From an uncultured Candidatus Cloacimonadota bacterium (GTDB taxonomy: Bacteria; Cloacimonadota; Cloacimonadia; JGIOTU-2): DNA of 64,000 nt. Position 1 is the stretch's first letter; every line of letters begins with the position of its first letter. The notes beneath the pieces are model-generated. The model was given only the letters and a program-made list of their open reading frames with translations. It was not told the origin of the DNA and did not search any database. Shown here piece by piece: positions 2,274 to 39,362 of the stretch. Both the position numbers and the translations under genes were made by a program. The stretch covers positions 22,762-86,761 of the forward strand of contig CAYNOU010000002.1 in assembly GCA_964398885.1 (NCBI GenBank), in the 5' to 3' direction.

Positions 2274-2357
2274 CTTCTTAATATGTTAAACTTTTGTTTG
2301 TAATAGATAAAATAATTATAGTTGATAATAAAAATTCAAAAATTTGAATATTTCTAT

Positions 2358-4256
2358 TCATGTATTGAATAATATTTTTACTATCTTATTAGCAATAGAT
2401 TCAGGGTCTAATCCCTGCACTTTATATACTTCTTCATTTTTTCCAGAGACTCCATATCGTGTAACACCAAATTTTACTAATTTGCATTGAATTCCATATT
2501 CAACTAATTTTTCAGAAACAATGCTTCCCAAACCGGTATTCACATTATGGTCTTCATAAGTAAAGATATAACCTGTGGAAGCTGCACTTTCTAAATCTTC
2601 TTTGCAAATATCAGAAACGCATGATAGATTCCAAACTGAGATATTAATTCTTTTACTTTTTAAGATTTCATATACTTTTAATGCTTTTTCAACCATCCCC
2701 CCGGTAGAAATTATCGTTGCATCATTTCCAGACCTAAGTCGGTCTGCTTTACCATAACAAAATTGATAATTGTTACTGTAAAAAACTTCATTATTTTCAT
2801 CTAAAATAATTTCAGTTTTGGAACGTCCAAGTGGTACGAAAAAGTTACCATTTTCAGATGCAATATATCTTATAATCTTATCAGTTTGGTTCGCATCTGC
2901 AGGAATAATTATTTTAAATCCAAAGAGATTACGCATCACACCAATATAATCAATGCATTGATGAGTTTTGCCATCCTCACCTACATCTAAACCAACATGA
3001 GTAGTAATCAATTTCAGATTGGTATGATTAATATCATTCAATCTCTGCTGGTTATAAGTCTCGTCTACACCAAAGACACCAAAATCAGAGTAAAAAGTTA
3101 TAATGCCTTCTTTAGACATAGCACCTGCAATTACTGCTGTGTTATGCTCTTGAATTCCACCTTGATAAAAGTTGTCGGGATTCTCTTTTGCAAATTTATT
3201 AGTTTTGACGGAGCCAGCAAGATCACAATCAAAAACTGCGAAATCAACTATATCTTTGTTTACTCGGACTAAATCAGCTAAAGCATTTCCATAAGCATCA
3301 CGATTTGCAACCTTTTTATCCTTATCATATATTTTTGGCTTGCCTTTTTGAACATTTTGTTTGCTTTTTTCTTCGGGATTGTTTGGGGGAATAATAAAAC
3401 TTTCCCTTAAATTTTTATATTTATCCAAATCATTTTTTACATTCAATTCATTCAAGGCTTTTTCACATTGAGACTCATTTAAAGCTTTTCCGTGGAACTG
3501 TGCATCATTTTCCATAAAAGAAACTCCTTTACCCATAACAGTATGTGCTAATATTGCAACAGGAGAATCTTTATAGGAATTCGCTCTTTCTAACGCAGAA
3601 AAAATTTGGCGAAAATCATGACCATCAATTTCAACCACTTCCCAGCCATCTGAGAGATAATTCTCCTTGATATTTTGGGGCATTACATTGCAAATTTTTC
3701 CACTTATCTGAAGTTTGTTATAATCAATTAGCACAGTGATGTTATTAAGACCGTATTTTCTTACAAATCTTCGTGCTTCTGATATTTGACCTTTTTGCTG
3801 TTCACCGTCCCCCATAGCCACAAAAACATTGTATTGAAGTCCTCGTTGCTTTCCTGCTAAAGCAAATCCGCATCCTGCAGAAAGTCCCTGTCCTAAATTG
3901 CCGGTTGCCCATTCAATACCGGGCACACTTGGCTCAACATGTCCTTCAAATATGCTTCCCGCTTTCCTGAAATAAGCAATAGCGTCATCAATATTAAAAA
4001 ATCCGAATCGTCCTAAAACAGAGTAAATTCCAGGAGCAGTATGCCCATGACTGATAACAATCCTATCACGATGTATATCTTTGAGATTATTGGGAGATAT
4101 GTTTGCAAAAGAATATAATGCAAGATATAAATCTAAAGAAGACACTGAGCCACCTGGATGGCCACTCTGAGCTAATGTAGTCATTTTCAGTATATCACCT
4201 TTACAAATGTGACTTAATTCATTTAATTCAGCTAAATCGAGTTTATTTTTTTTCAT
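2358..4256 (-). CDS. tkt: Transketolase.
   Basis: HPGGSVSSLDLYLALY, GHTAPGIYSVLG and MGDGEQQKGQISEA motifs are typical of TPP-dependent transketolase. The start is set at the internal ATG (MKKNKLDLAELN) at 4254-4256. The stop is TGA at 2358-2360. Confidence 0.85.
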   Translation of the reverse strand: MKKNKLDLAELNELSHICKGDILKMTTLAQSGHPGGSVSSLDLYLALYSFANISPNNLKDIHRDRIVISHGHTAPGIYSVLGRFGFFNIDDAIAYFRKAGSIFEGHVEPSVPGIEWATGNLGQGLSAGCGFALAGKQRGLQYNVFVAMGDGEQQKGQISEARRFVRKYGLNNITVLIDYNKLQISGKICNVMPQNIKENYLSDGWEVVEIDGHDFRQIFSALERANSYKDSPVAILAHTVMGKGVSFMENDAQFHGKALNESQCEKALNELNVKNDLDKYKNLRESFIIPPNNPEEKSKQNVQKGKPKIYDKDKKVANRDAYGNALADLVRVNKDIVDFAVFDCDLAGSVKTNKFAKENPDNFYQGGIQEHNTAVIAGAMSKEGIITFYSDFGVFGVDETYNQQRLNDINHTNLKLITTHVGLDVGEDGKTHQCIDYIGVMRNLFGFKIIIPADANQTDKIIRYIASENGNFFVPLGRSKTEIILDENNEVFYSNNYQFCYGKADRLRSGNDATIISTGGMVEKALKVYEILKSKRINISVWNLSCVSDICKEDLESAASTGYIFTYEDHNVNTGLGSIVSEKLVEYGIQCKLVKFGVTRYGVSGKNEEVYKVQGLDPESIANKIVKILFNT

Positions 4257-29246: not shown

Positions 29247-30854
29247 TTACCATTTCACATTTTGAATTACAATAAGAACGGTTGCAATATCAGCGGCAAC
29301 TCTCATCACATCCTTTGCAATCTGCCAATAATCATACTCTTTCTTCTCAGGAATAAAAATCATATCACCAACCTCAATTTTAGTATTCTTATCTGGCTTT
29401 AACCATTCACCAGTTACAGCCTTAATTAACCTTATTTTACTCTTGCGGGCTCGCCAGGCAAAACCACCAGCTTTATTGATATAATATAGATAGTTTCTAC
29501 CTTGAATAAATGTAATAAGTCCAGGACTTTTTACTTGACCCGAGACAGTTATAGTAATGGTTTTGTCTGGAATATAGATGAAATCACCGCTTTTCAATAA
29601 AATGTCTGCACCTTTATCCTTATCAAGCAAAAGTTTCCCAAAATCAATAGGGACCATTCCTTTTAATTCTCGGGACTTGGTTTTAAAATATTCATACTCC
29701 ATATCAGTCATATCTTCAACCAACATCAATTTTAATCTTTCAAATTCCGGGTCAACTATATCTACACTTCTTCTTCGCTGGAGATAGGCATTTTTCAAGT
29801 CAGCCTTATCAGTTGGTCTGCCGCATTTTTCAAGAATTTCAGCAAGGTATGTTTTGCCCTCTTCTATTGAGTATGCACCCGGGAATCTAACCTCTCCTGA
29901 AACGGTTACACCTTTCTTTTCATGAAATTCAGGAATTGAGCGAATGAAAATTCTGTCATCATTTTTTAATAATATGTTGTCTTCGCATTCAGGCTTATCT
30001 ATTATTTTCTTCAAATTTACTGTTAGAATTTCAGTATCAATATGGTTCTCTTTGAACCTAACAACCTCAGCTTTTTCTAAATATGCATCATCTCGTAAAC
30101 CGCCAGAAACTGCTATTGCGTCAGATAATCTATATCCTTCGGTTAAGTTATATTCATCAGGATTTTTTACTGCACCAGATACAGTAACTTTTAACTCTTC
30201 TCTTTTGTGATATTCAGGAATTGCTTTAATAAAAATCCTATCGTCATTTTTAAGCAAAACATTATCAGTAGATGCGGGATTATCTATCACATTTTGCAAA
30301 TTAATGGTTAATATTTCTGTATCAATATGATTATCTTTAAATCTAACAACCTCAGCTTTTTCTAAATATGCATCATCTCGGAGTCCCATTGCAAGTTCAA
30401 TTATATCACTGATTTTATCACCTTTTACCAATTCATAGGTGCCGACTCTGTTTACAGCTCCATAGATGGATATAGTCTTATCCCTAACCGGAACGAAGAT
30501 AACATCTCCGTCCTGCAGATATGGATTATCTTCTTCAGAGCCCAGAATAAGAAATCTTGCTAAGTCCAGTTTAATTTCAGAGTTATCCCTTCTTAATAAT
30601 ACCTTTCTTTTAGAGGCATTAGACAAAAAGCCAGTCCTTATGGTATCTGAGAAAGAAGCATATTTTATTGCTGTAAGGACTCTATCAGAGGATGGTAACT
30701 TATATACACCAGGATTTTGAACTGCACCTACCACTGAGACGCTATAATAGACTTCAACTCTTTGAGGCATAGTTTGTGCAGTCAAAATGCCATTTGCTAT
30801 AATGAAACACAATAGGTAAATTAAGACTGCATTTTTTTTGTAGTGTTTAGTCAT
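29247..30854 (-). CDS. Polysaccharide export protein (Wza-like) with multiple SLBB domains.
   Basis: Signal peptide. Repeated GDVIFVP/DRIFI motifs. Two near-identical internal ~80-aa repeats (GLRDDAYLEKAEVVRFK[DE]NHIDTEILT...). Confidence 0.7.
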   Translation of the reverse strand: MTKHYKKNAVLIYLLCFIIANGILTAQTMPQRVEVYYSVSVVGAVQNPGVYKLPSSDRVLTAIKYASFSDTIRTGFLSNASKRKVLLRRDNSEIKLDLARFLILGSEEDNPYLQDGDVIFVPVRDKTISIYGAVNRVGTYELVKGDKISDIIELAMGLRDDAYLEKAEVVRFKDNHIDTEILTINLQNVIDNPASTDNVLLKNDDRIFIKAIPEYHKREELKVTVSGAVKNPDEYNLTEGYRLSDAIAVSGGLRDDAYLEKAEVVRFKENHIDTEILTVNLKKIIDKPECEDNILLKNDDRIFIRSIPEFHEKKGVTVSGEVRFPGAYSIEEGKTYLAEILEKCGRPTDKADLKNAYLQRRRSVDIVDPEFERLKLMLVEDMTDMEYEYFKTKSRELKGMVPIDFGKLLLDKDKGADILLKSGDFIYIPDKTITITVSGQVKSPGLITFIQGRNYLYYINKAGGFAWRARKSKIRLIKAVTGEWLKPDKNTKIEVGDMIFIPEKKEYDYWQIAKDVMRVAADIATVLIVIQNVKW

Positions 30855-30990
30855 CTTTCTACCTCAGTAATTATTTAATTTCACTCAAAATTTTAGTTAG
30901 TTATTTTTCGCACACTAACAGCTTTTTATTACTTTTTCCATTTGGACTGAAAATATTAAGATAATTTGTATTCTTAAAATTTTCACCATA

Positions 30991-31671
30991 CTATTTTTCG
31001 GACTCAAGTTCATTGATAAGTTCTTCTGCCTTTTTAAGAAAAAATTCTTTTAATTCTTTAATAGTAACTTTTTTAATCATTCTGGGCAGTTTTTCTATTT
31101 TTCTAATTTCAAATAAAGATTGAGCTAACCAATGCTTTTCAATTCCGATATGCTTCTTTCTGGCATTTTCATAAATCTTATCAAATGATAAATATTCTTT
31201 ATCAATGAAATATATATCTACAAAATCCTTTGCATCATGTCTATCGAAAAGAGCAGAAAATTTATTACAAGCAATATCCAATAAGTTATCTACATAAATA
31301 CTAAACTCGTCGTTCATTTGAATAGGAGCTAAGCGATATGGAGAGTCAACAGCAAAGTCCATTTTCACTATTTCTTTCAGCTTTTCTTTATTTATTGCCC
31401 AACATTCAATAAATGTAGAGTATTCCCGCCGAAATTCAGCTTTTGCCCCAACTTTATCCAAAATATCAGGAAGTTGTGCTTTTGCAACCAGAATTGCCTT
31501 TGAATCGGTTGTAAAAAAATCAAGGTCTTCTGAAAAGCGATGTTTTAAGTAAAAGGCAGATAATGCACTACCGCCTGTGAAAAAGAAAAGTTTTCCAACC
31601 TCACTCTTACCTAATCCTTTAAGTATCTTCTTTTGAAAATTAGTGAGAATTCCCATATTTTTTTCTAACAT
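30991..31671 (-). CDS. Pol-beta superfamily nucleotidyltransferase, AbiEii/DUF1814-like (putative toxin), copy 1.
   Basis: FTGGSALSAFYLKHRFSEDLDFF has the hG[GS] motif and the [DE]h[DE]h motif. It is a paralog of 31914..32579. Confidence 0.55.
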   Translation of the reverse strand: MLEKNMGILTNFQKKILKGLGKSEVGKLFFFTGGSALSAFYLKHRFSEDLDFFTTDSKAILVAKAQLPDILDKVGAKAEFRREYSTFIECWAINKEKLKEIVKMDFAVDSPYRLAPIQMNDEFSIYVDNLLDIACNKFSALFDRHDAKDFVDIYFIDKEYLSFDKIYENARKKHIGIEKHWLAQSLFEIRKIEKLPRMIKKVTIKELKEFFLKKAEELINELESEK

Positions 31672-31921
31672 CTGGTAATGAAAAATACCATTCCCAGAAC
31701 TCTCTATGTGAACAACTAAGATTTAATTCTTTTAAATACTTAAATATATTTTTTGTACCAATTTCCTGTAAATCCTTGTCAGTTCCTCGTTCTAATACTC
31801 TTACGATATACCATTTTAGAAACATTTCCGATTTGAGTTCTTTCTCGGAAAAATCGTAATCCCAGATAAGCTTCTTGTTTATTTTCATTTTTTGCGAAAA
31901 ATTACCAAAATTTTTACTCAT
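31640..31921 (-). CDS. Small (93 aa) partner protein of the nucleotidyltransferase (putative antitoxin/regulator), copy 1.
   Basis: Overlaps the downstream NTase by 32 nt. Shares the IWDYD...W..W pattern with 32572..32856. Confidence 0.4.
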   Translation of the reverse strand: MSKNFGNFSQKMKINKKLIWDYDFSEKELKSEMFLKWYIVRVLERGTDKDLQEIGTKNIFKYLKELNLSCSHREFWEWYFSLPDVRKKYGNSH

Positions 31922-32579
31922 TTATTTCAATCAATTTATCTGCAATATTTTCTATGTCTTGAATCAAGGTACCGAAATCAGGCATTTCTATCCATTTTAT
32001 TATAGAAAAATTCTGTCTCTCTGCTAAGTATAAAATCCGAGCCACATCAAGAGGAAATATTCCAGCAGCTTTACTACCAGCATTTTTTATTGCTTTAGAT
32101 AATGATAGACCCATTTTAGTACAGAATGCCCAAATATCAACAATATCCTTTGGCTCGTTTCTATCAACAAGTGCTGTAACTTTATTAGCCAATATATTCT
32201 CGGGACTATCAATTCTGCCAAGAATCGGATGATTTCTTATAAGTCCGATATGAGATGGCACATCATTTACAAATTCTATCTTCAGTTCAATTTCTTTATC
32301 CACAATTACACATCTGGCAAAACGGTCTTCTCGTAACAAAATATCTAACTTCCATTCTTTGTTTTTTGTTATTGCATTGAAAATTCTATCAACCCACAGA
32401 CTAAATTCAGGTTTATCGTTCACAAAGAAATCAAGGTCATCAGAAAAACGATGATGTAAAAAAACTCTTGATGCAACTGTTCCATCTGTCAGATAAAATT
32501 TTTGATCTATTTTTTGTATAACCGAAAGAAAACTATCTTGCAAAGGATACAGTTTGTTGAAATAAAAATTCTTATCCAT
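31914..32579 (-). CDS. Pol-beta superfamily nucleotidyltransferase, AbiEii/DUF1814-like (putative toxin), copy 2.
   Basis: LTDGTVASRVFLHHRFSDDLDFFV. The downstream part is similar to copy 1 (KDFVDIY / KDIVDIW). Confidence 0.55.
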   Translation of the reverse strand: MDKNFYFNKLYPLQDSFLSVIQKIDQKFYLTDGTVASRVFLHHRFSDDLDFFVNDKPEFSLWVDRIFNAITKNKEWKLDILLREDRFARCVIVDKEIELKIEFVNDVPSHIGLIRNHPILGRIDSPENILANKVTALVDRNEPKDIVDIWAFCTKMGLSLSKAIKNAGSKAAGIFPLDVARILYLAERQNFSIIKWIEMPDFGTLIQDIENIADKLIEINE

Positions 32580-32856
32580 TGAGCTTCTCTGGATGTAGCT
32601 CTGTTAGCCATTTTAGTAAAAAGTCATACCCTCGTCGTCGGCTATTAGACCTAATTCTGTTTCTTACCTGCGGCCATCTCTTTACAAATTCAGGAAAACC
32701 TAATAATTTTATAACATCTTGATAATAAGCATATTCTAATAATCTTTGTGTTGCCCAAAGATAGTCTAAATTACCAATATGCATTTTATGATTTAAAATA
32801 TCAATAAATGTTCTTTCATCTATGTCATAATCCCATATCCAGTAAATACTTTTCAC
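32572..32856 (-). CDS. Small (94 aa) partner protein of the nucleotidyltransferase, copy 2.
   Basis: MKSIYWIWDYDIDERTF... Overlaps the NTase by 8 nt. It is a paralog of 31640..31921. Confidence 0.4.
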   Translation of the reverse strand: MKSIYWIWDYDIDERTFIDILNHKMHIGNLDYLWATQRLLEYAYYQDVIKLLGFPEFVKRWPQVRNRIRSNSRRRGYDFLLKWLTELHPEKLNG

Positions 32857-33109
32857 TAAAGTTCTCCTTAGGCTTACACTTGAATGAATTCTGCAAAAAT
32901 ATGGAAAATTCCCCTAACTTGCCGTTCTCGTGATCCCCGCATCCGCGAGGAGGGAATCCAGTAGAAATACTTGTCCTCACGAAAGTGGGGAAAGGACTGT
33001 GGATTTCCAATAGATTCCCAATCAAGTTGGGAATGACAATGTTGGGAATGACATGCGTATGCCATTTTGCAGATCTCATTTACAATTTAAAACAGTGCAA
33101 AAAAACCTT

Positions 33110-34366
33110 TTAATGAGAGTTGTTAAATACAACTCTTCCCTTTTTGATAAGCATCTCCACACAATTACTTCCAAGATGGTAAGGAAGATATTTATATGAA
33201 GGCATATCCATAATTAAAATATCTGCTTGTTTACCCACTTCAATTGAACCAATTTTATCACCTAATTCTAAGGAATAAGCAGCATTAATCGTAGATGCAG
33301 TAATGGCTTCAGAAGGCAGTAAACCCATTTCTATGCAAGCTAAACTAATTACGGTTTGCATAGAATCACAATGACAGGAGCCAGGATTAAAATCAGTAGC
33401 AAGAGCAATTGGCAATCCAGAGTCAGTCATTTTTCTGGCTGGAGCATATCTTTTCAGCCCTAAACTGAAAGTCGTGGCCGGAAGCAAAATTGGAATTACA
33501 TCTGCTTCTTTCAGCTTTTGAATTCCATTATCTAAAACAGCGACAAGGTGGTCAGCAGTAACTGCACCGATTTCTGCGGCAAGTTCTGCACCTCCGATTG
33601 GCTCTAATTCATCAGCATGCATACGAATCTTAAAGCCTAATTTTTTCGCTTCTGACAGAATTCTTCTGGATTGCTCAACATTAAAAACATGTTTCTCACA
33701 AAAAATATCACAATATTCGGCAAGATTTCGCTTTTTAACTTCCGGTAGCATTTCATCAATTAAAATCCTTATGTATTCTTCTTGATTGTTTTTATATTCT
33801 TCAGGAAATTCGTGTGCACCTAAAAAAGTGGGAATTATGTCCATTTCTGAGATTTTATCTATTTTCTGGATAGCTTCCAGCATTTTTATTTCTGACTCTA
33901 CGGAAAGTCCATATCCGCTTTTTGCTTCTATAGTGGTTGTTCCCATTTCAAGCATTTTAGTTATTCTCTTCAGACCGAGTTCTACCAGTTCTGCTTTTGA
34001 AGCTTTTCTGACATCATTTATACTTGAACGAATGCCACCACCGGATTGGGAAATTTCCTGGTAAGATTTTCCAAGAATGCGTATCTCAAACTCATTTTCA
34101 CGGGTTTTAACAAATATTGGATGAGTATGAGGGTCTACAAAACCAGGCATTACTACTTTTCCTGAAGCATCAATAACATTTTCGGAAATAAAATTTTCTG
34201 TAATTTCTTTTATAGTGCCAACCCCTGCTATTTTTTCACCAAGAACAGCAACAGCCCCATCTTGAATGATACCAAGATTTTGCATTTCAATACCAGTTTT
34301 GGGACTATCTGACTTAAGTGTCAATAGTTGATTTGCATTCTTGATTATTAAATCTGCTTTTTTCAT
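33110..34366 (-). CDS. hutI: Imidazolonepropionase.
   Basis: Amidohydrolase motifs VVMPGFVDPHTHPIF and IRMHADELEPIGGAELAAEIGAVTADHL. The start is placed at ATG 34364-34366 (MKKADLIIKN), because the upstream GTG lies inside the family-B repeat. Confidence 0.8.
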   Translation of the reverse strand: MKKADLIIKNANQLLTLKSDSPKTGIEMQNLGIIQDGAVAVLGEKIAGVGTIKEITENFISENVIDASGKVVMPGFVDPHTHPIFVKTRENEFEIRILGKSYQEISQSGGGIRSSINDVRKASKAELVELGLKRITKMLEMGTTTIEAKSGYGLSVESEIKMLEAIQKIDKISEMDIIPTFLGAHEFPEEYKNNQEEYIRILIDEMLPEVKKRNLAEYCDIFCEKHVFNVEQSRRILSEAKKLGFKIRMHADELEPIGGAELAAEIGAVTADHLVAVLDNGIQKLKEADVIPILLPATTFSLGLKRYAPARKMTDSGLPIALATDFNPGSCHCDSMQTVISLACIEMGLLPSEAITASTINAAYSLELGDKIGSIEVGKQADILIMDMPSYKYLPYHLGSNCVEMLIKKGRVVFNNSH

Positions 34367-34377
34367 ATTAAAAATTC

Positions 34378-34411
34378 TTTGCCACAGAGACACGGAGAAC
34401 ACAGAGATAAT
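34378..34411. repeat. Repeat family B copy upstream of hutI.
   Basis: tttgccacagagacacggagaacacagagataat. Confidence 0.6.
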
Positions 34412-34413
34412 TT

Positions 34414-34890
34414 TTACAACTCTTCAATAATCAAAGCCACAGCATAAACCTTTACACCTTCACCTTTTCCTACAAATCCCAATCCTTCCTCTCTTGTGGC
34501 TTTGATGGAGATTTGGGTTATTTCAATGTCAAGTTTATCAGCAATGTTGTATTTCATTTCTGGAATATAAATCTGTAACTTAGGTTTTTCAAGAACAATT
34601 GTTGAATCAATATTAATTATATGAAATTTTTTGTTAGCCAAAATCTTACCTGTTTCTTGTAATAAAATCAAACTGGATATATCTTTGTATTTTGAATTAG
34701 TATCTGGAAAATAGGAGCCAATATCACCAAGCGATGCTGCACCCAAAAGTGCATCAATAATGGCATGTATTAATGCATCACCATCAGAATGTCCTAAAAG
34801 TCCTTTTTCAAATGGAATTTCAACTCCACCTAAGATAAGTTTTCTATCCTTTGTTAAAGGATGAACATCGTAACCAAATCCTATTTTCAT
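34414..34890 (-). CDS. ispF: 2-C-methyl-D-erythritol 2,4-cyclodiphosphate synthase.
   Basis: [12 protein letters not shown]...[26 protein letters not shown] is the IspF signature. Confidence 0.9.
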
Positions 34891-35082
34891 TTTTTTATTT
34901 TAATTCGACGTAGAAAAACGCTGAATATGCTGAAAAACGCTGATGAAGACATATCTTTTTTCAATGATAATCAGTGGCTTTAGGCAGAGTTCTTCTGCCC
35001 GCTATTAAACGCAAACCATTGCGAAGGTCTGACGACCATTCGCAAGGTTTTGAAATCAGCGTTATCCTGCGTGCTATTATAT

Positions 35083-37866
35083 CTAATCCACAGTAATTGA
35101 TTTTGAAACATTTTTTGGTACATCGGGATGGACGCCATGTCTGGGCACATGGAGTTTATTAAGATATTTCATCTTTTTTATACTCATTCTCAAAGCTAAA
35201 AGTTGTAATACAACAATGCTTGAGAAAACTGTTAGAAGAGTATCACCGGTTTTTGGAAGTTCAATATAACCCCATTTATAGTCTGGATGTGCAGATGGAA
35301 TTGAACTAATGTTCTGGAGTAAGTCATCATTTTCTTCGGCAATAAGAAAGCTATTGGCACCCCGAATTTTATGTGTATTAATTTGCGAAATTGTTAATCT
35401 AACATCTCGCTCTTCAGGGCCAGTGATATAGATTAAAGGATAGTTTCTATATAGAGATGCAAAGAAATCAAATTCTTTAACTGCCTGTTCAAAGAGTTTC
35501 AAGGAATGAGGTAATAAATTAAAAGGTCTAACCCTATCAAAAATATAATCACCAAGCGCGGTTATCACTTTTGGAATATCTTCCTCAGTTATCACATCAT
35601 CGCTTTGGGTTTCAGAGTAGATAAATTCAATTGCTTTATTATACTTTTTCATCAAAGATTCTATATTCCATATTCCAAAAACTGTATTTTCTCCCAGTAT
35701 TGTATTTGGTCCGTGTTTAAATTCCGCTCCTTCTCTTCCTTCTGTATGATTCAAAACTGTTTCACGGATTTTTAAAGCGCCTTCTTGTGCAACGGGGCTT
35801 AACTTTGTTGCCAAAATATGTATGCTGGGCTCAAGAAAAATTTGTTCGGCGACATTTTCAATCTGAGCCTGGGTTGTATTAATCGTTTCGCTTATAATGT
35901 TTGGAATATAATCAAGTGTCTCAAAACGCTGAGTAATCTGTTGCTCTAATTGCTCTATTTCCTTCTTATCATACGAATTAGCCTTCATATGTTTAAGTCT
36001 AACTTCAGCGGTTCGTATTGCTAAATAATATAAAAGAGTAATTTGATTGATGTAACTTTTTGTTGCAGGCACTGCCATTTCTGGACCACATCTAATAGGC
36101 AGACAGAGTTGTGATTTCTCCTGTCCAAGAGTGGAATTTACATTATTTACAATGGCAATTCTATAAATATCTTTGCCCAATTTTTCTACATCGCTAAAAA
36201 TATCTATTAAATCTTTTGTTTCGCCACTTTGACTTATGCCAATGATTATGTCCTTATCTCGCAATGACTTTGAATATTGGCCGCGGAAATCACCTGGTAT
36301 AATAGGTATTATCTCAACTCCGGCGATTTCGTTAAAAAACAGGGCAGCGGTTTTGCTAGCATGATAGGAAGTACCGCAAGATGCAGCGTAAATATTACAA
36401 TGTTTATCCCAGGTATTAGTTATCATTTCAAGAAAACGATCTATTTTTTTCTGAAAATTTAAAGTTTCACTCTGCTCATCAATGGCGTCCATTATTTTAG
36501 CTAATAAAAGATAGTCTTCAGAAATTTCATTCCCAATTATATCTAAAAAAACAGTTGAATTTTCGGAATAGAATTCATCTTTGGTAAAATCTGGGTCAGT
36601 AAATTTATCAAACAATTCTGGAATCTCTTTCTTGCATTCTCTTTTTATCTCTATAAAGGATTTATCAGAAAGGAAATTTTGGAAAATTTTTGTCGGTTTT
36701 TCAAAGTCAGATGTTTCGGTGATACTTTTGCAAATTGTTTGATAGTTCTTTAACACCTTACTATCTTTTAAAATGCTACAAATTTTTTTGCTGTCTTCAC
36801 TTCCATTCTTTATAAATTGAATAAGCTTCCTACTACTTTCTACCTCAGCGTAAATTTCTTGTTCCATAAAATATTTAAATGGAGGTGAAAGCTTAATATC
36901 TTCAGCTCTTAACTTACTACGCTTCGGTTTAACATTTATCTTCTCACCTTCTTTGTAATGTTTATAAGTTCCATCCGCCAGACCCGATTCTATCCCCGAT
37001 ACATTCCCGATATATCGGGAGAGCTGGCGGATTGTTAAATCTTTTAATGCATATATTTGATATCTGTCGTGAGAAAATTCAATAAACTCATTTTCATATA
37101 TTTTGATTAATACTTTTGTATAATGTAAAATTGCAGTTAAGTCAGAGGATGCAAGAATAAATCTGTTACCTTCATATTCTCCGACACCCATATAAAGACT
37201 GCTTCCAGCCTTAATTGCGTAAACAATTTCTGTAACAGGGTCAACTATTACAGCAGCATAAGAACCTTCTAACTTTTTGTTTGCCTCAATTATTGCCTTT
37301 CGCATAGAATCCTTGCGAATCTGTGGTTCTAAATGTCTTTTATCTGGAAATTTCTCAATATACATATCAAAATATTGCTCAACAGTATGAACCAGTATTT
37401 CTCCATCATTATTACTTATAACATCATGTCCTTCATCAATAAGAAACTGTTTTAATGCGCAGGTATTGGTAATATTTCCATTATGAGCCCCGTAGATATG
37501 CTTTTTGCACTTTACTTCATGAGGTTGAGAATTTTCCTTGTTAACTGAACCGAAAGTTGCCCATCTAACCTGCCCACAGAATATTTTTCCTGATAGTTTT
37601 TCTATTCCCAAAGTTTTAACAAGTTCAGAAGGTGCACCTACATCTTTCCTGACTACAATTTTTCCTTTATCATCCTGAACAATAGCACCAGTTGAGTCAT
37701 AACCACGATATTCAAGACTTTTTAAAAGTTGGGCTGCTATCTTTCCCATTTTAATGGTCTGTTTGGCAAAGACTAAGCCAAGAACTCCACAACCAATTCC
37801 AATAACTGGGATTCTGATTTGAAAATCTTTTAATTTACTTAATATCTTTATTAATAATTTTTTCAT
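35083..37866 (-). CDS. glmS: Glutamine--fructose-6-phosphate aminotransferase (isomerizing), long form with insertions and a 25-aa N-terminal extension.
   Basis: CGVLGLV (Ntn Cys), LEYRGYDSTG, RWATFG and AHNGNITN match the GlmS glutaminase domain. SIS domains (ASCGTSYHAS...). The C-terminal ...KHGP...PKNVSKSITVD matches the GlmS C-terminus. 927 aa versus about 610 aa typical. Confidence 0.65.
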   Translation of the reverse strand: MKKLLIKILSKLKDFQIRIPVIGIGCGVLGLVFAKQTIKMGKIAAQLLKSLEYRGYDSTGAIVQDDKGKIVVRKDVGAPSELVKTLGIEKLSGKIFCGQVRWATFGSVNKENSQPHEVKCKKHIYGAHNGNITNTCALKQFLIDEGHDVISNNDGEILVHTVEQYFDMYIEKFPDKRHLEPQIRKDSMRKAIIEANKKLEGSYAAVIVDPVTEIVYAIKAGSSLYMGVGEYEGNRFILASSDLTAILHYTKVLIKIYENEFIEFSHDRYQIYALKDLTIRQLSRYIGNVSGIESGLADGTYKHYKEGEKINVKPKRSKLRAEDIKLSPPFKYFMEQEIYAEVESSRKLIQFIKNGSEDSKKICSILKDSKVLKNYQTICKSITETSDFEKPTKIFQNFLSDKSFIEIKRECKKEIPELFDKFTDPDFTKDEFYSENSTVFLDIIGNEISEDYLLLAKIMDAIDEQSETLNFQKKIDRFLEMITNTWDKHCNIYAASCGTSYHASKTAALFFNEIAGVEIIPIIPGDFRGQYSKSLRDKDIIIGISQSGETKDLIDIFSDVEKLGKDIYRIAIVNNVNSTLGQEKSQLCLPIRCGPEMAVPATKSYINQITLLYYLAIRTAEVRLKHMKANSYDKKEIEQLEQQITQRFETLDYIPNIISETINTTQAQIENVAEQIFLEPSIHILATKLSPVAQEGALKIRETVLNHTEGREGAEFKHGPNTILGENTVFGIWNIESLMKKYNKAIEFIYSETQSDDVITEEDIPKVITALGDYIFDRVRPFNLLPHSLKLFEQAVKEFDFFASLYRNYPLIYITGPEERDVRLTISQINTHKIRGANSFLIAEENDDLLQNISSIPSAHPDYKWGYIELPKTGDTLLTVFSSIVVLQLLALRMSIKKMKYLNKLHVPRHGVHPDVPKNVSKSITVD

Positions 37867-37904
37867 ATTCCTTAATTTCCATTAAAGCTTGAGTGACTTT
37901 AAAA

Positions 37905-38306
37905 TTAATCCTTTTCTTCAATCATTTTCATCATCGTTTTTTCTGCTTGATTAATAAATCTTTCTGCATTTTTAATTTGATGTTCTGCGTCTTCTTTACT
38001 TATTTCTACAAAATCTCTATAATCCGCATCTTCTCTAATATTTTTGGCTGTTGGCAACAATTTACTCAATTCCTTAGGAAAAAATCCTTCTTTAACAATA
38101 TACCTATTAAACAAGGAAATAACGCCTGAGTGTTTACTTGAATCCAACTCCTTCAATGCGAGTAATGCCTTTGTTGCGGAAAACATTGCATAATAACTTC
38201 TATTTGTAGACAATTTATAATGCCCATGTTGTAAACTATCTTTTGATTCAATAAGAATTTCCTTCGCTCGTTCCATCCTATATTTTGCTAATTCTATTCT
38301 ACTCAT
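37905..38306 (-). CDS. HEPN domain protein (HepT-like toxin of a MNT-HEPN module).
   Basis: 133 aa all-helical with ...NIREDADYRDF... (R-x-x-x-x-Y, HEPN-like). Overlaps the upstream MNT gene by 4 nt. Confidence 0.55.
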   Translation of the reverse strand: MSRIELAKYRMERAKEILIESKDSLQHGHYKLSTNRSYYAMFSATKALLALKELDSSKHSGVISLFNRYIVKEGFFPKELSKLLPTAKNIREDADYRDFVEISKEDAEHQIKNAERFINQAEKTMMKMIEEKD

Positions 38307-38644
38307 AAAGTTACTCCTTCTTTTTCTACTTTTTCAAGGAAAAATGACTTTAACTCCTTATTTTTCTTATATTCAAAAACACTGGATACAACAGGAGATA
38401 TTGGAATATCAGTTTCATAAAAATATTCAGCCGAAATGTCACTTATCTTATCTCTTACACCTTTTTTCCTTTTAACTAAAATAAAGATATCAATATCAGA
38501 ATCTTTGTTAAAGTCACCTCTAACTTTAGAGCCAAAAAGTTTGATAAAAACTATCTCATTCCCTAATTTTTCTCTTAACTCTTTAACAAAAGATGATACT
38601 ACCCTTGCCTCTTTTTTTGTTAAATATTTATATTTTTTTTGCAT
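38303..38644 (-). CDS. Minimal nucleotidyltransferase (MntA-like antitoxin of a MNT-HEPN module).
   Basis: LFGSKVRGDFNKDSDIDIFILV shows the GS...DxD pol-beta NTase motifs. 113 aa. Confidence 0.65.
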   Translation of the reverse strand: MQKKYKYLTKKEARVVSSFVKELREKLGNEIVFIKLFGSKVRGDFNKDSDIDIFILVKRKKGVRDKISDISAEYFYETDIPISPVVSSVFEYKKNKELKSFFLEKVEKEGVTL

Positions 38645-38669
38645 TTCAAAACCATATATTTATTCTTTC

Positions 38670-39362
38670 CTAATTATTCCTTAATATAGCTTCAGCAATT
38701 TTCAAATCAAACTTATCAGTTATCTTAATATTTTGGGGGGAACCCTGCAAAACAAATACATCTTCTCCAAGAATTTCCACTAATTCTGCATCATCATTTA
38801 CTTTGAGTTTTTTGCTTTCCGCATTTTTATGTGCTTTATAAATTAAGTCATAATAGAATGCTTGAGGTGTAAAAATTTCCCATAACTGTTTTCTATCTAA
38901 AGTGGATATGACTCTATTCTGCTTAATTCTCTTAATGGTATTTTTTGCTGGTATGCCGAGTGTAACTGCTCTTTTTTCTTCAGTCAGTTTAACAATTTCC
39001 TGAATTTCTTTAACCTTTACGAGAGGTCTAACCCCATCGTGAATTACAACATAATCAGTTGCTTCGGGGCACATTTTTAATGCATTAAATACGGATTGTT
39101 GTCTTGTTACGCCTCCATCAACAATGATAAATTTCTTTTTAGGAAGATTATATTCAGAAAAGAGTATTTTTTCAGCAAGTTTTCTATCTTCTGAACTGAT
39201 TGTGATAATTACTTTATCAAAAATTTCCGCTTTTAAAAATTTCTCTACTGTATGGACTATAATTGGTTTACCCGCAAGTGGCATAAACTGCTTTTTTATA
39301 GGTGGGTTCATCCTTTCACCTTTTCCTGCGGCTGTAATGATGGCTGATATTTTGTTTTTCAT
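38670..39362 (-). CDS. ispD: 2-C-methyl-D-erythritol 4-phosphate cytidylyltransferase.
   Basis: MKNKISAIITAAGKGERMN...KQF is the IspD N-terminal signature. 230 aa. Confidence 0.85.
   Translation of the reverse strand: MKNKISAIITAAGKGERMNPPIKKQFMPLAGKPIIVHTVEKFLKAEIFDKVIITISSEDRKLAEKILFSEYNLPKKKFIIVDGGVTRQQSVFNALKMCPEATDYVVIHDGVRPLVKVKEIQEIVKLTEEKRAVTLGIPAKNTIKRIKQNRVISTLDRKQLWEIFTPQAFYYDLIYKAHKNAESKKLKVNDDAELVEILGEDVFVLQGSPQNIKITDKFDLKIAEAILRNN

What the first reader, a model, noticed from the sequence alone, without database searches (positions are those of the whole stretch)
30991..32856. Two tandem, diverged copies of a two-gene module: small ~93-aa protein + AbiEii/DUF1814-like nucleotidyltransferase
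Four overlapping minus-strand genes form (small B)-(NTase B)-(small A)-(NTase A). Both NTases carry the pol-beta motifs hGGS/T-AL...HRFS[ED]DLDFF, as in the type IV TA toxin AbiEii. Both are only about 220 aa, shorter than canonical AbiEii. Each is preceded by, and translationally coupled to, a small protein sharing IWDYD...W...W motifs (MKSIYWIWDYDIDERTF / KKLIWDYDFSEKEL). These small proteins do not look like the canonical roughly 200-aa AbiEi antitoxin. The pairs share only about 25-30% identity, so this is an ancient duplication or an independent acquisition, not a recent repeat. The module sits between a polysaccharide export gene and hutI, next to a GC-rich repeat island. It is a possible uncharacterized TA or abortive-infection variant.
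Basis: partly seen in the sequence, partly recalled or inferred. Interest (0 to 1): 0.65.

Follow-up and report, generated by a model that had tools for sequence, protein, structure and literature searches.

The report
Two AbiEii-type toxin pairs, unusual partner
Two neighbouring gene pairs each couple an AbiEii/MenT-type nucleotidyltransferase (a known toxin family) to a small helical protein of an unstudied family that sits directly upstream of this enzyme clade across many phyla, so this is probably an undescribed partner (likely antitoxin) class for a known toxin.

Summary
Four overlapping minus-strand genes lie at 30991-32856 in a Candidatus Cloacimonadota genome, in the order small B, NTase B, small A, NTase A.

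- **NTases:** both match Pfam AbiEii (PF08843; 68.5 and 47.0 bits, cut-off 22.5). Both keep the S-x-D-x-D, Lys and Asp catalytic residues.
- **Small proteins:** neither is AbiEi. They match no AbiEi model in Pfam or PADLOC, and the confident small A model has no solved structural relative. They are very diverged homologues of each other: a profile built from five unrelated intermediate sequences scores B at 32.9 bits and A at 18.1 bits, above all 2000 shuffles. The family is only loosely related to Pfam DUF6922.
- **Pairing:** in 77 of 80 metagenome loci found with the NTase, a member of the small family lies directly upstream, usually overlapping. None was found in 474 control segments. Two independent small-NTase fusions exist.
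- **Orphans:** small genes without an intact NTase are common, whereas NTases without a small gene are rare. One sister genome keeps small A beside an internally deleted NTase A.

The best reading is two independently acquired toxin-antitoxin-like modules of the DUF1814 (AbiEii/MenT) kind with a new small partner. Toxicity and neutralisation are untested. I rate it a new variant of a known kind, of moderate interest.

The parts
32572..32856 (-). Small B: 94-aa helical protein, a diverged member of the small-partner family (IWDYD...W..R.LE...D...W...W). Probable antitoxin or regulator of NTase B.
   Evidence: ORF. GTG start preceded by AAGGAGA at 32863-32869. Orthologues at 79-95% identity. No Pfam, NCBIfam or PADLOC hit. 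Linked to the small A family by hhalign (Prob 81%) and by an intermediate HMM (32.9 bits, 0 of 2000 shuffles reach it). AF2 model is low confidence (pLDDT 57), but its helices are offset 9-10 residues from those of small A, matching the inserted segment in the hhalign alignment.
31914..32579 (-). NTase B: 221-aa AbiEii/DUF1814-family nucleotidyltransferase (putative toxin). Residues S46-D48-D50, K133 and D145/D148 are present. Carries a G32D change in the GG[ST] motif.
   Evidence: PF08843 at 47.0 bits against a cut-off of 22.5. PADLOC AbiEii models match. Motif positions. Orthologues have GGT. 8-nt overlap with small B.
31640..31921 (-). Small A: 93-aa ORF, with a likely true start at Met12 (31888) giving 82 aa. 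Member of a widespread family of small helical proteins distantly related to Pfam DUF6922. Probable antitoxin or regulator of NTase A.
30991..31671 (-). NTase A: 226-aa AbiEii/DUF1814-family nucleotidyltransferase (putative toxin). Residues G33-G34-S35, S47-D49-D51, K137 and D149/D152 are present.
   Evidence: PF08843 at 68.5 bits. Closest solved relative is JHP933 (4O8S, profile E = 6e-8), then MenT4 (6Y56, E = 0.066). Catalytic residues are invariant in the 11-sequence alignment. 32-nt overlap with small A.
32857..33109 (.). 253-nt structured intergenic insert between the hutI-like gene and small B. It contains the Shine-Dalgarno of small B and probably the promoter region. It is context, not a component of the gene pairs.
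   Evidence: Inverted-repeat ends at 32883-32898 and 33065-33080. RNA fold z-score -4.06. Absent from the sister genome, where hutI and small B are 15 nt apart. Only one copy in the window.

Best explanation
The region holds two independently acquired, adjacent two-gene modules of the DUF1814 (AbiEii/MenT) toxin-antitoxin kind. In each, a short (about 220 aa) nucleotidyltransferase is the growth-inhibiting component. By analogy with characterised family members, it would add nucleotides to tRNA 3'-CCA ends and block aminoacylation.

The small (about 82-94 aa) helical protein encoded just upstream and translationally coupled to it is the cognate neutralising partner. It replaces the canonical roughly 200-aa AbiEi (COG5340) antitoxin.

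Neutralisation most likely needs direct binding of the small protein to the NTase. It may occlude the active site, or it may trigger auto-phosphorylation of the conserved Ser of the S-x-D-x-D loop (S47 in A, S46 in B), as shown for MenA1-MenT1, MenA3-MenT3 and AbiEi-AbiEii.

What is shown: family membership of the NTases, homology of the two small proteins, near-obligate gene pairing, and the decay and fusion patterns. What is inferred: toxicity, the target, direct binding and the mode of neutralisation.
For: 1. Both NTases exceed the Pfam AbiEii threshold. They keep every catalytic residue, and these residues are invariant in 11 homologues from about 8 phyla.
2. Pairing when searching from the NTase: 77 of 80 metagenome loci carry a small-family ORF directly upstream, mostly overlapping by 8-19 nt. 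The same HMMs found 0 hits in 474 control segments. The other 3 loci have look-alike small ORFs.
3. Pairing when searching from the small protein: distant subfamily members in Bipolaricaulota, an Armatimonadota-named cluster and a further MAG are also followed by an overlapping PF08843 gene.
4. Asymmetry of orphans. Of 14 genome loci found through the small protein, only 6 have an intact NTase. The rest are frameshifted, truncated or lack it. Only 3 of 80 NTase loci lack a detectable small gene. The sister genome L006 keeps small A but has a roughly 480-nt internal deletion of NTase A. A toxin should be lost first while its antitoxin persists, and this is the pattern seen.
5. The locus is mobile and patchy. 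The same hutI|SLBB site holds both pairs in this window and in NIOZ-UU1, and only a decayed pair A in RS_16_45. NTase A is closer to NTases of Actinomycetota, Planctomycetales and Aminicenantia (46-51%) than to NTase B (29%).
6. Physical coupling: two independent in-frame small-NTase fusions, P0080 and L038. One protein has a weak Phd/YefM antitoxin-like N-terminus followed by the small domain (P0114).
7. Partners co-diversify (Spearman 0.50, p = 3e-6).
8. Precedent: structurally unrelated antitoxins, including the 68-aa MenA1, neutralise DUF1814 toxins (PMC10435456, PMC11375011 and the 2026 preprint).
Against: - There is no experimental evidence for toxicity or neutralisation in this clade.
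- The closest solved relative, JHP933, has no demonstrated toxin activity (my own knowledge).
- The modules sit among housekeeping genes rather than in defence islands. They are nearly absent from sequenced plasmids and viral contigs.
- The small protein has no recognisable DNA-binding domain, so autoregulation is unexplained.
- In-frame fusions would also fit a non-toxic enzyme with a regulatory or specificity subunit.
- NTase B in this genome carries G32D in a Gly-rich motif that is otherwise conserved, and may be attenuated.
- The orphan asymmetry rests on small and differently selected samples.
Confidence: 0.65

Rival explanations
1. This is a non-toxic two-subunit enzyme. The NTase performs a regulated, non-lethal nucleotidyl transfer, such as modification of an RNA or a small molecule. 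The small protein is its obligate specificity or regulatory subunit, not an antitoxin.
For: Near-obligate pairing and two in-frame fusions are classic signs of subunits of one enzyme. The loci lie among housekeeping genes. The module is rare on plasmids and viral contigs. JHP933, the closest solved relative, has no shown toxicity (my own knowledge).
Against: Distribution is patchy and polymorphic between sister genomes. Decayed NTases sit next to intact small genes, whereas a subunit should be lost together with its enzyme. Every characterised PF08843 or DUF1814 member cited here (AbiEii, MenT1, MenT3, MenT4) inhibits growth. One small domain is fused to a Phd/YefM-like antitoxin N-terminus (weak).
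Confidence: 0.2
2. This is a phage-defence (abortive infection) module in which the small protein is a sensor or trigger rather than a simple antitoxin. It would hold the NTase inactive and release it on infection, as in fused systems such as CapRel.
For: AbiE was first defined as an abortive-infection system. The 2026 preprint discusses AbiEi as a possible sensor. Fused small-NTase forms exist. Two diverged copies sit side by side, as is common for defence genes.
Against: There is no defence-island context. Only an MNT/HEPN pair lies 5 kb away. No PADLOC model matches the small proteins. No structural relative of the small A model was found among viral protein models, and a single weak partial NTase match was the only hit in viral contigs, so nothing points to phage interplay. 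This reading overlaps with the best explanation rather than excluding it.
Confidence: 0.1
3. This is a recent local tandem duplication of one module, or the small ORFs are chance reading frames.
For: The same gene order is repeated head to tail, and both small proteins share the IWDYD motif.
Against: NTase A and B are only 29-32% identical. NTase A is 46-51% identical to NTases of other phyla. The sister genome has pair A only. The small ORFs are conserved across phyla: 112 clusters and 77 of 80 loci.
Confidence: 0.02

Closest known systems
AbiE (AbiEi-AbiEii) of Lactococcus and Streptococcus agalactiae; DUF1814-COG5340 modules
   Same: The NTase belongs to the same Pfam family, PF08843. It has the same S/T-x-D-x-D, Lys and Asp catalytic set. 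The operon has two genes with the partner gene upstream.
   Different: The partner is an 82-94-aa all-helical protein. It has no winged helix-turn-helix and no AbiEi C-terminal domain. No AbiEi model in Pfam or PADLOC matches it. PADLOC-type rules that require AbiEi would therefore not call this system.
MenA1-MenT1 of Mycobacterium tuberculosis (PMC10435456, PMC11375011)
   Same: A short DUF1814 NTase is paired with a very small, non-COG5340 partner encoded upstream. The Ser/Thr phospho-acceptor position is conserved.
   Different: MenA1 (68 aa) is essentially one long helix plus a short second helix. The paper identified only 21 menA1 homologue genes, 15 of them upstream of a menT-like ORF. 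The family here is a predicted multi-helix bundle (six helices in the small A model) with an extended N-terminal WDYD segment. It shows no sequence match to any PDB chain and is spread over many phyla.
JHP933 of Helicobacter pylori (PDB 4O8S, 4OK0)
   Same: It is the closest solved relative of NTase A and its clade (profile E = 6e-8). It is of similar length (232 aa), and the RFSEDLDF motif is identical.
   Different: JHP933 is a plasticity-zone protein with no assigned partner or toxin function (my own knowledge). I did not test whether a small-family gene lies upstream of it.
Pfam DUF6922 (PF21956)
   Same: Small A and 26 of 66 family members hit this model over the N-terminal WDYD...WY..RVL region.
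   Different: All hits fall below the gathering score (best E = 1.2e-6), and small B does not hit at all. The Pfam model has 52 positions and matches only the N-terminal part of the protein (model positions 1-39 in small A). No paper in the searched library mentions DUF6922.

Membership tests
AbiEii / DUF1814 nucleotidyltransferase (Pfam PF08843) | Profile match above Pfam's gathering score | tested here: met
   NTase A scores 68.5 bits and NTase B 47.0 bits against a cut-off of 22.5. 20 and 17 PADLOC AbiEii models also match at E <= 1.
AbiEii / DUF1814 nucleotidyltransferase (Pfam PF08843) | Catalytic residues: Gly-rich motif, S/T-x-D-x-D loop, catalytic Lys, distal Asp (MenT1 T39, D41, K137, D152 in PMC10435456) | tested here: met
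   A has G33-G34-S35, S47-D49-D51, K137 and D149/D152. B has S46-D48-D50, K133 and D145/D148. These residues are invariant in 11 homologues. One exception: B has D32 where its orthologues have Gly.
AbiEii / DUF1814 nucleotidyltransferase (Pfam PF08843) | Growth inhibition and tRNA 3'-end nucleotidylation | not testable with these tools
   This needs expression assays and tRNA sequencing.
AbiE system (AbiEi + AbiEii; DUF1814-COG5340) | Cognate AbiEi/COG5340 antitoxin (winged HTH N-terminal domain plus C-terminal domain, about 200 aa or more) encoded next to the NTase | tested here: not met
MenAT1-type module (MenA1 small antitoxin) | Partner homologous to MenA1 (68 aa, one long helix binding two toxin protomers) | tested here: not met
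   Profiles of both small families find no PDB chain at a significant E-value. The predicted fold is a multi-helix bundle, not a single long helix.
Pfam DUF6922 (PF21956) | Profile match above the gathering score (27 bits) | tested here: inconclusive
   Small A scores 23.9-24.5 bits, and 26 of 66 relatives hit weakly. Small B gives no hit, but is tied to the small A family through intermediates.
Toxin-antitoxin module (generic) | Conserved adjacent, co-directional, overlapping gene pair with patchy, horizontally mobile distribution | tested here: met
   77 of 80 loci are paired against 0 of 474 controls, and overlaps are mostly 8-19 nt. The locus is polymorphic between sister genomes. NTase A is closer across phyla than to its neighbour.
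Toxin-antitoxin module (generic) | The toxin is lethal or static alone and is neutralised by its partner | not testable with these tools
   Only indirect support is available: orphan small genes are common and orphan NTases are rare.

The most novel reading that the evidence does not exclude
The small WDYD-helical protein family would be a third, previously unrecognised and phylogenetically widespread class of cognate partner for DUF1814 (AbiEii/MenT) toxins. It is structurally unrelated to AbiEi/COG5340 and to MenA1. It would neutralise the toxin by binding through its extended acidic N-terminal WDYD segment and inducing auto-phosphorylation of the active-site Ser. The fused small-NTase forms would then be single-chain, self-inhibited toxins awaiting a trigger. 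If so, antitoxin-induced auto-phosphorylation has been reached by at least three unrelated antitoxin folds.
Probability: 0.3. Interest if true: 0.65.

Novelty: new variant of a known kind. Interest (0 to 1): 0.5.

Why it matters
DUF1814 nucleotidyltransferases (AbiEii, MenT) are a current model for tRNA-targeting toxins. They are also the model for an unusual regulatory principle: the antitoxin induces the toxin to phosphorylate itself.

So far two antitoxin folds are known, COG5340 (AbiEi, MenA3) and the small MenA1 group (21 homologue genes in the paper's search). This window points to a further partner family that is nearly always paired with one clade of short AbiEii-type enzymes. That family is spread over many mostly uncultured phyla, including Cloacimonadota, Bipolaricaulota, Omnitrophota, Planctomycetota, Actinomycetota and Aminicenantia.

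Rule-based defence finders that require an AbiEi gene would be expected to miss it, because no PADLOC model matches the small proteins. It offers a compact system of about 300 residues for testing whether auto-phosphorylation control is universal in the family. It also offers natural fusion proteins for studying self-inhibited toxins. If the NTase proves non-toxic, the pair would instead define a new two-subunit nucleotidyltransferase.

Tried and rejected
- **Joint MAFFT alignment of small A and B:** it misaligned the C-terminal halves, so I did not use it as a profile.
- **First family HMM:** it was built from an untrimmed alignment of 344 columns, and small B scored no better than shuffles. 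A trimmed HMM gave only 7 bits, reached by 6 of 2000 shuffles. Homology was settled only by hhalign and by the intermediate-sequence HMM.
- **Word-indexed homologue searches:** they returned only close relatives. The exhaustive search was needed.
- **The search for related loci with the broad alignment A5:** it failed because no stretch was conserved enough. A narrower alignment, A6, worked.
- **P0023 (687 aa, '12 stretches'):** this is a low-complexity tandem-repeat artefact, not a family member.
- **AFDB Foldseek library:** unavailable.
- **Small B structure model:** too poor to use for fold search (pLDDT 57).
- **Plasmid collection:** one weak NTase hit and no small-protein hit.
- **Viral contigs:** one weak partial hit.
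- **Rfam on 30000-34000:** only a sub-threshold manA-II hit (27 bits against a gathering score of 100) on the intergenic insert.
- **Promoter and terminator scan:** no more sites than in shuffled sequence.
- **Literature:** a search for 'DUF6922' returned no papers.
- **Rejected hypotheses:** a canonical AbiE system and a recent tandem duplication (see rival explanations).
Full report
**1. What is there**

Four minus-strand ORFs tile window 30991-32856 with no gaps:
- small B, 32572-32856, 94 aa
- NTase B, 31914-32579, 221 aa
- small A, 31640-31921, 93 aa
- NTase A, 30991-31671, 226 aa

Small B starts at a GTG six bases after an AAGGAGA Shine-Dalgarno. Small B and NTase B overlap by 8 nt (ATGGATAA), and small A and NTase A overlap by 32 nt. 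Small A probably begins at Met12 (31888). A 56%-identical homologue starts one residue before the equivalent Met, and a sister genome only has that start.

The flanks are a hutI-like amidohydrolase (33110-34402) and an SLBB polysaccharide-export gene (29247-30854). IspF, a 927-aa GATase+SIS protein, an MNT/HEPN pair and IspD lie further upstream. The organism is a Candidatus Cloacimonadota bacterium: the best genome loci carrying the small A gene (91-93% identical) are Cloacimonadota MAGs, and NIOZ-UU1 carries the whole block.

**2. The enzymes**

Both NTases exceed Pfam's AbiEii (PF08843) threshold, at 68.5 and 47.0 bits against a cut-off of 22.5. They also match many PADLOC AbiEii models. 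They are 32% identical to each other.

In an alignment with nine homologues (seven from other phyla, two close Cloacimonadota relatives), the residues corresponding to the MenT catalytic set are invariant:
- the Ser of the S-x-D-x-D loop (S47 in A, S46 in B)
- the two Asp residues of that loop
- the Lys (K137 in A, K133 in B)
- the distal Asp residues

The MenT papers define these as the phospho-acceptor and the catalytic residues (PMC10435456 and PMC11375011).

The closest solved relative is H. pylori JHP933 (4O8S, profile E = 6e-8), followed by MenT4 (6Y56, E = 0.066). The window's NTase B has Asp where its two orthologues and the nine other aligned NTases have Gly in the GG[ST] motif. This could be an attenuating change.

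**3. The small proteins**

Neither small protein matches any AbiEi model. Small A hits Pfam DUF6922 just below threshold. No paper in the searched library mentions that family.

An exhaustive profile search from small A found 112 clusters at 50% identity, most of them proteins of 70-110 aa. Their consensus is MKINKKLIWDYD...E.F..WY..RVL.RG...D....G...I..YLP.L.LP..IR.FWEWYF. Only 26 of 66 members hit DUF6922, all weakly.

BLASTP sees only the IWDYD motif between A and B, and a direct family HMM is marginal. Three results show that they are diverged homologues:
- hhalign aligns them along their full length (Prob 81%).
- The predicted helices of B are offset 9-10 residues from those of A, as that alignment predicts.
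- An HMM built only from five independent intermediate sequences, found upstream of NTases in metagenomes, scores small B at 32.9 bits and small A at 18.1 bits. None of 2000 shuffles exceeds 11.2 bits.

**4. Is the pairing real?**

*Searching from the small protein.* In 14 genome loci from Cloacimonadota, Actinomycetota, Deltaproteobacteria, Aminicenantia, Planctomycetales, KSB1, Elusimicrobia, Omnitrophota and others:
- 6 have an intact overlapping NTase of about 215-226 aa.
- 4 have a frameshifted or truncated NTase.
- 4 have no recognisable NTase. One of these (L006) retains fused 5' and 3' remnants of NTase A.

Three distant subfamily members (a Bipolaricaulaceae MAG, a cluster named from an Armatimonadetes MAG, and a further MAG) are each followed by an overlapping PF08843 gene, among housekeeping genes.

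*Searching from the NTase.* A profile scan of metagenome contigs gave at least 517 confirmed matches, of which the best 80 were kept. In 77 of these 80, a small-family ORF lies immediately upstream. The same HMMs found nothing in 474 control segments taken from the opposite strand and from downstream. The overlap is usually 8-19 nt. The remaining three loci carry look-alike small ORFs (NWSxD...YG...LLW).

*Fusions.* There are two independent in-frame fusions of the small domain to the NTase: P0080 (332 aa, with PF08843 at residues 124-264) and L038. One protein joins a weak Phd/YefM-like N-terminus to the small domain (P0114).

*Co-variation.* Partner types co-vary with NTase types (Spearman 0.50, p = 3e-6).

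**5. History of this locus**

NIOZ-UU1 (L001, L005) has the same four genes between hutI and the SLBB gene. RS_16_45 (L006) has, at the same site, only small A followed by fused 5' and 3' remnants of NTase A. About 480 nt are missing, corresponding to window 31591-31111. It has no pair B.

NTase A is 46-51% identical to NTases of other phyla but only 29% identical to NTase B. The two pairs are therefore separate acquisitions or very old paralogues, not a local duplication. No further copies exist in the window.

**6. Interpretation**

All characterised PF08843/DUF1814 proteins cited here (AbiEii, MenT1, MenT3, MenT4) inhibit growth. MenT1, MenT3 and AbiEii are reported to add nucleotides to tRNAs (to the 3'-CCA end for the MenT toxins). 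Structurally unrelated antitoxins neutralise MenT1, MenT3 and AbiEii by inducing auto-phosphorylation of the loop Ser/Thr; MenA4 works in another, unknown way.

Five features fit a toxin-antitoxin module with the small protein as antitoxin:
- conserved catalytic and acceptor residues
- the upstream overlapping partner
- patchy, cross-phylum distribution
- decay of the NTase while the small gene is kept
- excess of orphan small genes over orphan NTases

I put this at about 0.65. The specific mode of neutralisation, binding through the WDYD segment and induced auto-phosphorylation, is inference only.

The main rival, at about 0.2, is a non-toxic enzyme with a regulatory subunit. The fusions, the housekeeping context and the rarity on plasmids and viral contigs fit that reading as well. 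A phage-defence role is possible but has no support from context.

**7. Comparison and novelty**

The NTases are members of the AbiEii family. The system is not AbiE, because the defining AbiEi partner was tested for and is absent. It works like MenAT1 in having a small non-COG5340 partner, but that partner is unrelated to MenA1.

I found no description of this partner family in the literature available to me. It is a new variant of a known kind: widespread, and likely to be missed by defence-finder rules that require AbiEi. It is conceptually anticipated by MenAT1, so I rate the interest as moderate (0.5).

Noticed in passing
window 32857-33109: A 253-nt intergenic element between the hutI-like gene and small B. 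It has 16-nt inverted-repeat ends (32883-32898 and 33065-33080), a tandem GTTGGGAATGACA repeat and a stable fold (z = -4.06). It is absent from the sister genome NIOZ-UU1, where the gap is 15 nt. It looks like a MITE-type insertion. Rfam gives only a sub-threshold manA-II hit. There is one copy in the window.
   Followed up: partly
window 37905-38644 (minus strand): An MNT (113 aa; NTP_transf_2 and Polbeta) plus HEPN (133 aa) pair lies just downstream of ispD on the minus strand. An MNT+HEPN pair (113 and 157 aa) follows ispD in the sister genome (L001 3674-4485) too. It is a second TA-type module, 5 kb from the finding.
   Followed up: partly
window 33110-39362 compared with L001 2940-7044: The ispD-ispF-hutI stretch varies between sister genomes. 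This window has a 927-aa GATase+SIS gene (35083-37866) between HEPN and ispF that L001 lacks. L001 to L003 and L006 have a DUF433+PIN pair between ispF and hutI that this window lacks. The region behaves as a hot spot where TA-type modules accumulate.
   Followed up: partly
L006 4001-4549 (Cloacimonadota RS_16_45): At the same hutI|SLBB site, small A is intact. NTase A is reduced to fused 5' and 3' remnants, with about 480 nt missing (window 31591-31111). Pair B and the intergenic insert are absent.
   Followed up: yes
window 32486-32488 (codon 32 of NTase B): NTase B of this genome reads L-T-D-G-T, where its orthologues (L003, L004) read L-T-G-G-T and nine of the ten other aligned NTases also have Gly-Gly-Thr (NTase A has Gly-Gly-Ser). 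This is a G32D change in the Gly-rich nucleotidyltransferase motif and may attenuate the enzyme.
   Followed up: partly
P0080 (332 aa); L038 about 2300-3142: Two independent natural in-frame fusions of the small domain to the AbiEii-type NTase, one in each small-protein subfamily.
   Followed up: partly
P0114 (169 aa); P0077 (182 aa): P0114 joins a weak Phd/YefM antitoxin-like N-terminus (E = 4.5e-4, below threshold) to the small domain. P0077 carries two tandem copies of the small domain.
   Followed up: partly
window 29247-30854: The SLBB export protein is 535 aa here against 443 aa in NIOZ-UU1. It contains an internal duplicated segment: window about 30379-30186 and 30101-29908 cross-match in blastn.
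   Followed up: no
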